This document shows, one piece after another, positions 3,167 through 60,139 of a DNA stretch of 64,000 nt. The notes below the pieces were generated by a model. That model had not been told where the DNA came from and ran no database searches. It saw only the letters and a list, made by a program, of their open reading frames with translations. A program made the position numbers and the translations under genes. Each line of letters begins with the position of its first letter. The stretch's first letter is position 1. Source of the stretch: Octopus vulgaris (Eukaryota). The DNA lies in assembly GCA_951406725.2 (NCBI GenBank), contig OX597818.1, positions 16,244,001 to 16,308,000 of the forward strand, written 5' to 3'.

Positions 3167-5410
3167 ATGAAGATGACAATAGCAACCAATTCTCTTATTG
3201 TTTCAATCACATTTATTATATTACTGACACCACTAAATATAGATACAACAGAACTCGGAAATAATTGTGAAATAAAAATTTGCCCCAATGTCAGCAAGAG
3301 TTTAAATCGTTTAGTAAAATCAGGCAAAAAGGTTTTCATTTTTGAAGTTCATATATCTGATAAAAATCTTGATGGTTTTCTGAATCCTGTACCATTAGAT
3401 CTTTATGCAGATGCTCGGCGTTTCACGTGGATTCCAGATGAAAAAGATGGTCTCATAGCGTATAAGAATTTCTTCTATGACTTTTCACTTCACACATTTA
3501 ATTTATTAGATGTCTACATCGCTACTCTAAGTGTTGATATCGATATAAATTGTGGAAAACAAAATATTCAGAGATTCGGTGTAATAAATTTAATTTTCAA
3601 GGAATTGAAGAGAGCCATATTTATCGATAAATTGCAAATGGGAGATTCCGGATACATGTGTTTTCTTATAAATTTATCCCAGGACATGAATAAGACGAAC
3701 AAATACGCGTTAGAAGCTTATAGAAGACTGGGTATGAATCGAGAGATATTGAAGAACTATTGCTGTGAGCTACATAAAAATAAAAGCCATGTTTATGATT
3801 CACAATACATTTGTTCTGGACATACCATTGACAATAGCATGTATGTCAATTATGAAAATATTGTTGGAGCAGTTTTGTGGGCTATATTGCCATTAATTAT
3901 CAGGTTTGTATCAAAAGCTAAATTACCTTCATATTCCCGCGAACTTAACCAACAGCAACTAGCTCACGGTGAATCCTCATTTAGAATTATGTACACATTA
4001 CCACACAAATCAGAATGGGTCAATGAAAAATATAGTATTTACAGTTTCTCTCATTTTCTATCCTGGTTATTTTGTTTTCACCATTCCACTTTCTTTGCTT
4101 CAAAATTAAGAAGATTCATTTTTATTATGTTTCCTCTTTCAATAATTTTCCTGGATCTTTTAATGCATTATTTATTTTTATATGAAACGATGAAAATACT
4201 TTTACATGATCGTATTCCATTGGGTTATCGTGGCATGATTCTAGGAATCTCAGAAAGCTATGAAAATACAGATGGTTTTTTCGGGGGTCCCTTTTTTTGG
4301 ATAATTAGCTATATATTTTTCAACTTTATTCTCTTCGTTTTTCCCAGTCGTTTAAGTGAGACTATCGCTTATAGTACATTACATCAAAGGTCTACTTGCA
4401 CTTTTCTTATTCAAAATATTAGATTAATAGAGAACTATGGAAATTTAAATAGGTTTGAACTTGAAGATTACGATCTACTTTATGCAATAATGAAAGCCAA
4501 TATTTCTACTGCTTTAAACCCACATTTCTGGTATTTAATTATTTATACTTGGATTAAACGTATAAAGAAAATTTGGTTTTATTACTACGAGAGAAATATT
4601 TTTAGCCAATTCATATTTCTTTGGTTATTTATTACGATCACGATTTTATTTGCTGTATTTTCTATCTGCGAATTACTTCTGTGCCTCGTTTATTACGGAA
4701 TCCCAATCGTTTATTTGATGCTAACTTTACCCTTAAGTTACTTCAAAGTCTATATTTTACCAATGTATTTGAATCCCAACCAAATTTTAAAGATCACTGC
4801 TTTTATTTTAACATTCGTATCGTTGCCCTTTTATGTATTATGGTATTTAAATTCGATTTATATTTTTCTTACAACTTTCCAAGTTCTTTGCAACTATTCA
4901 TTTTCAATAGCTATTGCTGTAATTGCTAAACCTGATACTATTGGTGATATATGGTTTGTCGCCATGTTTTTCGTTTACGGTTTTGCAGTTACGAAAGCTA
5001 TTCATAAAAAGTATCGCACTATACTAGTTAAAAGTATAAAGTTAACCAGAACTGTTCGCTCAGAATTAGTTCAATCAAAATATGGAGAGAAATTCATAAG
5101 TGCAAAATTGTTTAAAACAATTATTAACGAACATTTTCCTTTGAGATACGAAATTAGTACATCCATTGTAAAACTGTTCCTAATCGTATCTTTTTTCTTT
5201 GCTTGCAACAACATAATAAACCGAAATGATTTAGATTTATCAGCATTCACAAAATTCACGTTGATTTTGACGACGTCTCTGATACCTAAATTATTGTCAA
5301 TAATTAATACTAAATTTCGTGTTGATATATCCCTGTCACATAGAATTATCGAAACAATTAATATATTCGAAGAAGTAAATATTTCACAGACAAGTTTATC
5401 ACTTTGTTAA
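3167..5410 (+). CDS. Uncharacterised multi-pass membrane protein, paralogue 1 (747 aa, intronless CDS)
   Basis: 2.2-kb ORF in AT-rich DNA; Kozak-like gccATG; hydrophobic N-terminal signal peptide; ectodomain with Cys conserved across paralogues; about 9-11 hydrophobic segments; colinear with two other copies; AATAAA at 5423-5428. Confidence 0.92.
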   Translation: MKMTIATNSLIVSITFIILLTPLNIDTTELGNNCEIKICPNVSKSLNRLVKSGKKVFIFEVHISDKNLDGFLNPVPLDLYADARRFTWIPDEKDGLIAYKNFFYDFSLHTFNLLDVYIATLSVDIDINCGKQNIQRFGVINLIFKELKRAIFIDKLQMGDSGYMCFLINLSQDMNKTNKYALEAYRRLGMNREILKNYCCELHKNKSHVYDSQYICSGHTIDNSMYVNYENIVGAVLWAILPLIIRFVSKAKLPSYSRELNQQQLAHGESSFRIMYTLPHKSEWVNEKYSIYSFSHFLSWLFCFHHSTFFASKLRRFIFIMFPLSIIFLDLLMHYLFLYETMKILLHDRIPLGYRGMILGISESYENTDGFFGGPFFWIISYIFFNFILFVFPSRLSETIAYSTLHQRSTCTFLIQNIRLIENYGNLNRFELEDYDLLYAIMKANISTALNPHFWYLIIYTWIKRIKKIWFYYYERNIFSQFIFLWLFITITILFAVFSICELLLCLVYYGIPIVYLMLTLPLSYFKVYILPMYLNPNQILKITAFILTFVSLPFYVLWYLNSIYIFLTTFQVLCNYSFSIAIAVIAKPDTIGDIWFVAMFFVYGFAVTKAIHKKYRTILVKSIKLTRTVRSELVQSKYGEKFISAKLFKTIINEHFPLRYEISTSIVKLFLIVSFFFACNNIINRNDLDLSAFTKFTLILTTSLIPKLLSIINTKFRVDISLSHRIIETINIFEEVNISQTSLSLC

Positions 5411-5529
5411 TATTCTCTGAAAAATAAAACTATTCATATATGCTAGAAATTATTCTATCGTTTTTAACTACTTTCACACTGAAAGCACAAAATATCAAAC
5501 AAAACACACAGACCCACACTCATTATAGA

Positions 5530-5700
5530 TGTGTGTGTGTATGTATATGTGTGTGACTGTATGTACATAATAATACGGATATGAATATGTGTGCGCGTGA
5601 ATGTGTGTAGTATGTGTCTGTGTGTTTGCGTGCGAGTGTGTGTGTGTGTGTTGTGTGTGTGTGTGTGTGTGTGTGTGTGTGTGTGTGTGTGTGTGTGTGC
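5530..5700. repeat. (TG)n microsatellite
   Basis: Directly visible. Confidence 0.9.
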
Positions 5701-57530: not shown

Positions 57531-57617
57531 CTATACAAAGTAGTTAAAAGCGATAGAATAATTTCTGGAATATTGGAATAATTATATTTTTGGAAAAATG
57601 TTAATAGTTTCGTAAAT

Positions 57618-60139
57618 TCAATTGGATTCATTTCCTTTTGGAAGTTCATAAATTGTGTGAATAACTTTGTGTGACAGAGACGTATCACAATGAAATTTAG
57701 CATTCATTTTCGACAATACATTAGGCATCCATGAAATCATCAATATCAAAGCAATCCGTGCGAATGCTGATAGATGCAAATCCTTTCGATTTATTATGTT
57801 ATTGCAAGCAAAGAAAAAAGATACGATTAGAATTAATTTTATAATGGCTTTACCAATCTCGTAACTTAAAGGAAAATACTTGTTAACGATTGCTTCAAAC
57901 AATTTGGCATCAATGTATTCCTCTTCATATTTTAACTGAACTAAATTTGGTTTTATAATTTTGGTAAACTTTATTGATTGAACTAGTATCCCTTTATAAT
58001 ATTCCTGAATAGCGTTCATAACTGTAAAAGCGTGAACGAAAAACATGGCAACAAACCATATATCACCGACAATATCAGGGTTAGCAAGCATTGCAATAGC
58101 TATTGAAAATACATAAGTGCAAATGATTTGAAAACTCATAAGAAATACATAGCTTGAAGCAAATGCCCATAATATAAAAAACGGCAATGACGGCAATGAT
58201 AAAATTTTATCAGGACACTTGGAAGGATATATATTTTTCTTCATTAGAGGTAAAATATATTTTTTGAAATAACTTAATGGTAAAGTTAGAATCAAATATA
58301 TGAATGGGATTCCGTAATAAACGAGGCGGAGAAGTAATTCACAGATAAAAAATACAACAAATAAAATTGTAGCCAAAATAGGAAGCAAACATAATATAAT
58401 TTTTATAAAAATATTGCTCTTGCAGAAAATAGTCCACATTTTACGTATACGCGTAATCCACATATCAAATATAGATTTCCAGAAATATGGGGTCGTAGCA
58501 GTAAAAACTTTAACTTTAATTATTGCAAGGAGTCGATCATAACCCTGAAGTGTAGAAAAAGAATCTTCTTTGAGTTTTGTATCTATCATACTTTCAGCGA
58601 TAATCTCACTTACATGACTGGGAAGAACAAACAGGATAAAGTTAACAATTATGTAGCTGATTATCCCCAAAAAGTGACCCCAAACAGAACAATCTGAAAG
58701 TTCATAGCTTTTCTGGATTCCTAGAATGAACGAGCGATAACCCAATGGAATGCGATCATGTAAAAATATTGTCACCGTTTCATATAAATATAAGTAATAC
58801 ATTAAAAGATCTAGAAGAATTACTGAGAGAGAAAGCAAAATAAGAATACCTCTTCTTAGTCTCGAAACACACAAAGTCGAATAATGAAAACAAAACAACC
58901 AATATAAAAAATGAGAGAAACTGTAAATATTATGTTGTATACTAATCCATTCTGATTTGTCTGGCAATGCGTATTTACATAGATATTCATTGTTAGGTAA
59001 TTGTTGCTGGTTAGGTTCTAGGGAGTTTGGCGATGTGTCTTCATTTTGAGAATTTAATCTCTCGTTAGTTGACTGTTGCTGGTTAGGTTCTAGGGAATTC
59101 GGCGATGTGTCTTCATTTCGAGAATTCAGTTCCTCGTTAGTTGATGGTTGCTGGTTAGGTTCATTTGAATTTGGTGATGAGAGTAGAGTTTCCAAATGCA
59201 CTTCCTCGTTACCTGATTGTTGCTGGTTAGGTTCATTTGAATTTGGTGATGAGGATAGAGTTTCCAAATGCACTTCCTCGTTAGTTGATTGTTGCTGGTT
59301 AGGTTCATTTGAATTTGGTGATGAGGGTAGAATATCCAAATGCACCTCCGCGTTACCTGATTGTGGCTGGTTGCAGGAATACGGAGGTAATTTAGCTTTT
59401 GATATAAACCTGATATACAATGGAAATATGGCCAACAGAACTGCTCCAACAACATTTGCACAATTGACAAACATACTGTTTTCAATGGTATTTCCAGAAC
59501 AAATGGATTTTGGTTCATAAGTAGTATTATCATTTTTATGTAGTTCACAACAATAATTCTTCAGTATCTCACGATAAATACCCAATATTCTGTACGCTAA
59601 TAACGTATAAGGACTGTTCTTCTGCATGTCGTGCGACAAATTTATAAAGAAACACATATATCCAGATTCTCCCATCTGCGTTTCATTGATAAATACGATT
59701 CTATTTAATTCCTCGAGAAAATCGAATATATTACATCGTATCGCTGAACATTTTGTTTTCCACAATTCATATCGATATCAATACTTGGAGTAGCAATGTA
59801 AGCGTCTAATATATTAAATGAGCGAATTGAAAAGTCAAAGAGGACATTTTTATACATTACTAAACCATCTGGTTTATCTGGAATCCATGTGAAACGTCTC
59901 GCATTTGCAAAATAATCTAGTGGCACAGGATTGAGAAGGCCATCAATTTTTTTATCAATTATATGGACTTCAAAATTGAAAACTTGTTTGCCTGATTTTA
60001 CTAAACGAGTTAAATTTTTAATGACAGTGGGAGAAATTTCAGTTGTACAATTATTTCTGTGTTCTTTTGCATATGTGTTTAGTGATGTGAGAGAAATAAT
60101 AAGGATGACTGATAAAAGAGGTGCTGTTACCATCTGCAT
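57618..60139 (-). pseudogene. Paralogue 3 of the membrane-protein family; one +2 frameshift at 59715-59716 (recent pseudogene, null allele or assembly error); ~839 aa if corrected
   Basis: ORFs 60148-59705 and 59765-57618 join into a protein colinear with paralogues 1 and 2; minus strand reads ATT TTC TC GAG GAA versus ATT TTC GAG GGA in paralogue 2; no other stop. Confidence 0.85.
59000..59375 (-). repeat. In-frame 72-bp (24-aa) coding minisatellite, ~5 units
   Basis: ggttaggttc recurs at 59009, 59081, 59153, 59225 and 59297; PNSNEPNQQQSTNEEVHLETLSSS-type units. Confidence 0.92.

What the first reader, a model, noticed from the sequence alone, without database searches (positions are those of the whole stretch)
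3167..60139. Cluster of three intronless genes for an uncharacterised receptor/channel-like membrane protein family
Seen: three colinear paralogues (two +, one -). Each has a signal peptide and a ~200-aa ectodomain with six shared Cys (NC, [NK]C[GA]KQN, GYMCF, YCCE, ICSG) and NxS/T sites. About 9-11 hydrophobic helices follow, with conserved motifs YSFSHF..WLFCF, HD[RH]IPLGYR, CELLL.LVYYGIP, GD[IV]WFVAMF, KLF..I.N..[FY]PL.YEI and LIVSFFFACNNII. I cannot place it in GPCR, Cys-loop, iGluR/IR, TRP, DEG/ENaC or SLC families. Known: clustered, single-coding-exon, diverging paralogues with occasional pseudogenes are typical of sensory or immune receptor repertoires (olfactory receptors, cephalopod chemotactile receptors). 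Inference: this may be an undescribed expanded cell-surface sensor or channel family undergoing birth-and-death evolution.
Basis: partly seen in the sequence, partly recalled or inferred. Interest (0 to 1): 0.85.

Follow-up and report, generated by a model that had tools for sequence, protein, structure and literature searches.

The report
Octopus-expanded orphan nine-helix membrane protein family
These three octopus genes belong to a cluster-forming family of at least 56 copies that encode a predicted cell-surface protein with nine membrane helices and an outer domain matching no solved structure searched, and the family likely works as a repertoire of chemical sensors or ligand-gated pores of an undescribed type.

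Summary
Observation confirmed. The three paralogues are real, two intact and one frameshifted. They are 3 of at least 56 loci (27 with an intact frame) in arrays on two chromosomes of an Octopus genome. Gene A is spliced in RNA-type contigs: two upstream exons join across ~11-12 kb introns, so only the coding part is (almost) single-exon. Each window gene or clade has a counterpart in O. bimaculoides. Relatives occur in bivalves, abalone and an annelid, all unnamed, plus one ancient single-copy cousin in the same genome. No Pfam or PDB sequence match. A confident model (pLDDT 87) gives signal peptide, ~195-aa disulfide-rich ectodomain and nine membrane helices (N out, C in). The ectodomain alone (pLDDT 92) scores at best Z 2.8 against 48,161 chains. 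The automatic 'STRA6' label is unsupported. Copies are under purifying selection (dN/dS ~0.4, ectodomain no faster than membrane part), but ~13% of sites fit dN/dS>1, several on helix TM6, where distant relatives carry buried charges. Best reading (0.45): a ligand-sensing receptor or channel whose pocket is being retuned. Tissue and function are untested.

The parts
3148..3166 (+). 5' leader of gene A's main exon; splice acceptor AG at 3146-3147. Upstream exons lie outside the window, ending at G000:C5:16234808 and 16236027
3167..5410 (+). Gene A, intact, 747 aa: signal peptide, ectodomain (~30-222), nine predicted membrane helices
3254..3832 (+). Ectodomain of A (residues 30-222), six Cys, alpha/beta model with no solved match
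4802..4930 (+). Long helix TM6 of A (residues 546-588) with fast-changing polar sites 560, 562, 569, 572, 576
24318..26528 (+). Gene B, intact, ~736 aa from the ATG after the acceptor at 24298 (open frame from 24270)
57618..60148 (-). Gene C, frameshifted near 59714 (pseudogene or assembly error); acceptor-like AG at 60160-60159
59002..59372 (-). 72-bp (24-aa) tandem repeat in the first cytoplasmic loop of C, variable in length among sister copies

Best explanation
These genes are members of an octopus-expanded, birth-and-death family of predicted nine-helix cell-surface proteins that likely act as ligand-sensing receptors or ligand-gated pores, each copy likely tuned to different small molecules. 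Shown: clustering, copy number, splicing, purifying selection, deep relatives, lack of a known family. Predicted: N-out/C-in topology, a disulfide-held ectodomain, a conserved G/P-rich loop between TM2 and TM3, and polar or charged residues inside the membrane (E502 in TM4; 330/334 in TM2; 569/576 in TM6). Inferred: these residues line a membrane pocket or pathway capped by the ectodomain; binding changes its state; with no recognisable cytoplasmic enzyme domain, output would be ion or solute flux or a partner protein; octopus copies retune specificity by swapping the TM6 residues and a few ectodomain residues.
For: 73 matches merging into 56 loci, 27 intact, in tandem arrays. Spliced transcripts for gene A. 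dN/dS 0.38-0.43, so the proteins are functional. N-glycosylation motifs concentrate before TM1 across 75 aligned relatives, and K/R-rich loops fit the topology. E/D at 502 in 64 of 64 distant rows; D/E at 569 in 35 of 64; R/K at 576 in 40 of 64. In 27 octopus copies a site-mixture codon model gives 13% of sites with dN/dS>1 (LRT 64.6; 12 null simulations gave at most 3.8); 576 shows 10 residues and 562 shows 9, and 562/569/576/580 fall within 40 degrees on a helical wheel. TM6 mean dN/dS 0.86 against 0.60 overall. The octopod copies form one clade; the oyster relative finds only this clade in the genome. Clustered single-coding-exon repertoires are typical of chemosensory families (recalled).
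Against: No tissue data and no functional data. Ectodomain dN/dS 0.38 (0.31-0.47) equals that of the helices, 0.40 (0.32-0.49). The TM6 excess has p 0.0004 as a fixed region but 0.06 after allowing for the scan, and the helical-face test is not significant (p 0.22-0.30). Of 33 sites with posterior above 0.9, 13 are in cytoplasmic loops 394-483 and 613-663 or the tail, and 7 in the ectodomain, so change is not confined to a pocket. The site model is my own, with fixed relative branch lengths and no synonymous-rate variation; ectodomain and rest-of-gene trees differ for some copies, so gene conversion may inflate it. I had no coordinates to check that the polar residues face one cavity. The octopus copies have mostly lost the 569/576 charges, which could mean relaxed constraint.
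Confidence: 0.45

Rival explanations
1. A solute transporter or uptake receptor (working like STRA6 or LMBR1-type proteins), expanded for substrate range or dosage in gut, gill, skin or gland, with no sensory role.
For: Nine helices with N out and C in is the STRA6 topology (recalled); UniRef auto-names two orthologues 'Receptor for retinol uptake STRA6'. A long tilted helix and buried charges suit a transporter. The ectodomain is not preferentially diversified.
Against: No hit to the STRA6 Pfam model for A, B, C or 30 relatives, nor to any PDB sequence with the family profile. Half the loci are broken, a turnover more typical of repertoires than of housekeeping transporters (inference).
Confidence: 0.22
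2. An immune, self-recognition or microbe-binding surface receptor of haemocytes or epithelia.
For: Rapid turnover, some positively selected sites, glycosylated Cys-rich ectodomain, several divergent copies in filter-feeding bivalves.
Against: Ectodomain is not hypervariable; no Ig, lectin, LRR, TIR or kinase domain.
Confidence: 0.15
3. The protein has one conserved job (for example a membrane enzyme or scaffold) and the octopus expansion is largely neutral, driven by unequal crossing-over in LINE-rich DNA.
For: LINE reverse-transcriptase fragments lie between the genes; ten pairs of copies are over 95% identical and some may be recent segment duplications or uncollapsed haplotypes; 29 of 56 loci are broken or partial.
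Against: Copies 53-70% identical are kept intact under purifying selection, and A, B and the C clade each have an O. bimaculoides counterpart. No invariant His/Asp catalytic set; invariant residues are Cys and Pro.
Confidence: 0.13
4. A highly diverged member of a known channel or receptor family (GPCR, TMC/OSCA, SID-1, insect-type 7TM channel) that the searches missed.
For: Three C-terminal helices align with parts of SIDT1/2 (Z 7.5, rmsd 1.9, 70 residues) and class C GPCRs (Z about 7, rmsd 5.6-5.8, about 100 residues). One distant relative carries PF28478, which I could not identify.
Against: Those matches cover one three-helix bundle, tie with unrelated bundles and fall in the tool's stated background; the ectodomain has no counterpart in them.
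Confidence: 0.05

Closest known systems
Cephalopod chemotactile receptors and other expanded, intronless lophotrochozoan nAChR-like genes (CRs recalled; nAChR expansion seen as search listing PMC6896357)
   Same: Clustered, single-coding-exon, lineage-expanded surface proteins with signal peptide and Cys-containing ectodomain.
   Different: Cys-loop proteins have four membrane helices and a beta-sandwich ectodomain (recalled); this has nine predicted helices, an alpha/beta ectodomain and no Pfam match.
STRA6 / RBP receptor (PF14752)
   Same: Nine helices, N out, C in (recalled); automatic UniRef label on two orthologues.
   Different: No profile match; a cleavable-type signal peptide and a 195-aa six-Cys ectodomain that STRA6 lacks (recalled).
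Vertebrate olfactory and insect odorant/gustatory receptor repertoires (recalled)
   Same: Tandem arrays, birth-and-death, many pseudogenes, variable residues in membrane helices.
   Different: Seven helices and different folds; no sequence match here.
SID-1 family (SIDT1/2)
   Same: Signal peptide, ectodomain and many membrane helices; a 70-residue three-helix match.
   Different: Match is limited to that bundle; no ectodomain match; no conserved zinc-binding His set.
Unnamed L059/P0146 subfamily (one member carries PF28478)
   Same: True full-length homologue: hhalign 98.4%, E 6e-15, 631 columns; single long open frame.
   Different: One copy found in this genome, about 13% identical to the family; also uncharacterised as far as I could find.

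Membership tests
STRA6 / RBP receptor | Match to Pfam PF14752 or to the solved STRA6 sequence | tested here: not met
   No such hit for A, B, C at E<=10, 30 relatives at E<=0.5, or the 75-sequence profile against PDB sequences
STRA6 / RBP receptor | STRA6 membrane fold | tested here: inconclusive
   Not among listed rows; membrane domain not folded and searched alone
STRA6 / RBP receptor | Nine helices, N out, C in | tested here: met
   Inferred; STRA6 topology recalled
GPCR | Seven-helix bundle matching a 7tm profile | tested here: not met
   No 7tm Pfam hit; nine predicted crossings
GPCR | 7TM fold | tested here: inconclusive
   Only about 100 residues of three helices align, Z about 7, rmsd 5.3-5.8
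Cys-loop / chemotactile receptors | Neur_chan_LBD ectodomain and four membrane helices | tested here: not met
   No Pfam hit; alpha/beta ectodomain; nine helices
iGluR/IR, TRP, DEG/ENaC, TMC/OSCA/TMEM16, SLC | Pfam profile match | tested here: not met
iGluR/IR, TRP, DEG/ENaC, TMC/OSCA/TMEM16, SLC | Fold match over most of the membrane domain | tested here: inconclusive
   Foldseek best E 0.76, TM-scores about 0.1 or less; VIA rows are short helix bundles
SID-1 | Tandem beta-rich ectodomains and 11 helices with zinc site | tested here: inconclusive
   Three-helix match only; SIDT not among the ectodomain rows; no invariant His
PF28478 | Match to the PF28478 model | not testable with these tools
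   Model absent from the local library; precomputed on P0146 only
Birth-and-death sensory repertoire (as a kind) | Tandem arrays with intact and broken copies under purifying selection | tested here: met
Birth-and-death sensory repertoire (as a kind) | Expression in sensory cells and ligand response | not testable with these tools
   Runs carry no tissue labels
Transposon-derived gene | RT, transposase or envelope domain in the protein | tested here: not met
   No Pfam hit; no viral-structure hit at E<=0.001; spliced leader exons

The most novel reading that the evidence does not exclude
A structurally new class of animal ligand-gated channel or chemoreceptor, with a new ectodomain fold and a nine-helix membrane domain, ancient in molluscs and annelids and expanded to dozens of copies in octopuses as a second chemosensory repertoire beside the chemotactile receptors, its specificity set by TM6 residues.
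Probability: 0.3. Interest if true: 0.92.

Novelty: categorically new. Interest (0 to 1): 0.72.

Why it matters
New folds among animal multi-pass surface proteins are rare, and a 56-locus octopus expansion is on the scale of families singled out in cephalopod genome papers, yet my searches found no mention of it. If it senses chemicals it adds a receptor class and gives candidates for cephalopod smell or taste. Even if it is a transporter, it is a widespread uncharacterised family with a testable model. 'Categorically new' refers to the protein architecture; the genomic pattern is a known kind and the function is untested.

Tried and rejected
Pfam: no real hit for A, B, C, 30 relatives or L059. 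PDB sequences: nothing significant. ESM Atlas: no usable hit for A or the oyster relative; a blank shows neither novelty nor absence. Fold searches of the whole model: Foldseek PDB and viral none at E<=0.001; VIA only helix bundles, best Z 8.1; STRA6, TMC, OSCA and insect-type receptors were not listed, which does not exclude them. Ectodomain: best Z 2.8, Foldseek none. Homodimer prediction of residues 222-720: no answer, alignment unused, fold uncertain. PF14752 search of the genome rang nowhere, controls included, so it is uninformative. No listed run is on record as RNA; RNA status of X1, X2, X5 rests on the splice joints. Ten literature searches, three by 18 accession or family ids, found no paper on the family. 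Seen: passages of PMC9068888 (it mentions unnamed squid gene arrays in a supplementary table I did not read); 3 supplement files of PMC9699675, file 2 not searched, no hit; main text of PMC9258296, no hit; the rest as listings only. Supplements and subscription papers may bear on this. Earlier scan findings: none relevant. The first site-model run failed numerically and was redone. Ectodomain-biased diversification was tested and rejected.
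Full report
OBSERVATION. A (3167-5410 +, 747 aa) and B (24318-26528 +) are intact. C (60148-57618 -) has a frameshift near 59714, 2 extra bases relative to three intact sister copies, and a 72-bp repeat in its first cytoplasmic loop. Identities are 68% (A/B) and 55-60% (A/C). Ten of 11 quoted motifs are in all three. The DNA between them holds microsatellites and LINE fragments. 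The genome is an Octopus, most likely O. vulgaris: a named protein is 100% identical over part of A.

GENE STRUCTURE AND EXPRESSION. In two RNA-type runs (X1, X2) contigs leave the genome exactly at the AG acceptor before 3148; a piece of a third (X5) starts there; a contig of the large DNA-type run X17 reads straight through 1760-3569. The two loose ends map 11.1 and 12.3 kb upstream, each followed by GTAAGT. Gene A is therefore transcribed and spliced. One leader has an in-frame stop; the other could add up to 18 residues. B and C have the same acceptor-like site just before their ATG, untested by reads. 'Intronless' holds only for the coding part. Tissue is unknown.

FAMILY SIZE. The C-terminal third of A gave 73 matches in the genome, a lower bound. 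I merged them into 56 loci: 12 on C5 (16.25-16.49 Mb), 31 on C1 at 205.66-206.41 Mb, and 13 in four smaller C1 groups. The script called 28 intact; I dropped L041 for a late frameshift, leaving 27 of 56. The other 29 have frameshifts, stops or are partial, one being cut by a contig end. Some breaks may be assembly errors, and ten pairs above 95% identity may include haplotype duplicates. Intact copies are 53-99% identical, median 70%.

RELATIVES. The exhaustive search gave 92 proteins at E<=0.001. Of 30 looked up, those with organism names were Mytilus, Ostrea, Mercenaria, Haliotis and Owenia, all uncharacterised; most had no name, so cnidarians and others are neither shown nor excluded. In a tree of 55 sequences (11 of the 27 intact copies) Octopus copies form one clade with Argonauta as sister; A, B and the C clade each pair with an O. 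bimaculoides protein. An oyster relative finds only this clade in the genome, with a strict first pass. A far more distant protein, P0146, led to a single octopus gene, L059, homologous over the full length (98.4%, E 6e-15). So the superfamily has at least two ancient branches, and one exploded in octopods. P0146 carries PF28478, which I could not identify.

STRUCTURE. With 75 sequences AlphaFold2 gave pLDDT 87.3, pTM 0.83. With family hydropathy, charge bias and glycosylation sites I read: signal peptide; ectodomain 30-222; TM1 226-247; TM2 314-337; a conserved outer loop with P-x-G-[FY] and GGP; TM3 375-393; a cytoplasmic subdomain; a TM4/TM5 hairpin; a 49-residue TM6; TM7 running into a cytoplasmic helix and beta-hairpin; TM8; TM9; C-terminus inside. 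The count of nine assumes TM6 crosses once. The ectodomain alone folds at pLDDT 91.7, pTM 0.88 and reaches only Z 2.8 against 48,161 chains, where unmatched models typically reach 7-8. That suggests, but does not prove, a new fold. The whole model matches only three-helix bundles; the membrane domain was not searched alone. The UniRef label 'STRA6' has no profile support.

SELECTION. Over 27 copies dN/dS is 0.38 for the ectodomain and 0.40 for the helices: the genes are functional, and the ectodomain is not the variable part. A site-mixture model finds about 13% of sites above 1 (LRT 64.6; 12 null simulations at most 3.8) and 33 sites with posterior above 0.9, five in TM6. In distant rows 502 is always acidic, 569 acidic in 35 of 64 and 576 basic in 40 of 64; in octopus 576 takes 10 residues. 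Against this: the TM6 excess is p 0.06 after scan correction, the helical-face test is not significant, many fast sites are cytoplasmic, and region trees disagree for some copies.

MECHANISM. I commit to a ligand-sensing receptor or gated pore (0.45). The repertoire-like genomics are shown; the topology and buried polar residues are predicted; pocket, ligand and output are inferred. Rivals: transporter or uptake receptor 0.22, immune or recognition receptor 0.15, single conserved job with neutral expansion 0.13, missed member of a known family 0.05.

NOVELTY. It behaves genomically like known chemosensory repertoires but fails every sequence-level membership test I could run, and fold tests are inconclusive rather than positive. 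Ten literature searches found no description; supplements and subscription journals were largely out of reach. Verdict: real, uncharacterised, architecturally new as far as tested; interest 0.72.

Noticed in passing
L059:1174-4071 (G000:C5:116.79 Mb): Single long open frame (899 aa from first Met) for an ancient full-length homologue, 31% identical to P0146; the natural reference for the family's ancestral function.
   Followed up: partly
P0017, P0019 versus window 3146-3970, 4835-5101, 18907-19002, 57624-60160: Public gene models are wrong here: A is fused to an upstream gelsolin-like gene with its middle spliced out, and C is patched with false introns. This may be why the family is overlooked.
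   Followed up: partly
window 59002-59372; L037, L038, L040: C clade has an N/Q/S/E-rich 24-aa repeat in the first cytoplasmic loop; the loop segment is 43 aa in A and 111-255 aa in the sisters.
   Followed up: partly
G000:C5:16.30-16.43 Mb: Pairs L002/L003, L052/L053, L038/L040 suggest a recent duplication of a three-gene block, or an uncollapsed haplotype.
   Followed up: no
window 48288-50545 +: GC-rich LINE with RT and zf-RVT domains, split into two frames; other LINE fragments at 28025-28612 +, 42847-43590 - and 44279-45076 -.
   Followed up: partly
window 17034-17498: About 1.8 copies of a 252-bp unit that begins like a tRNA-derived SINE (recalled resemblance, untested).
   Followed up: no
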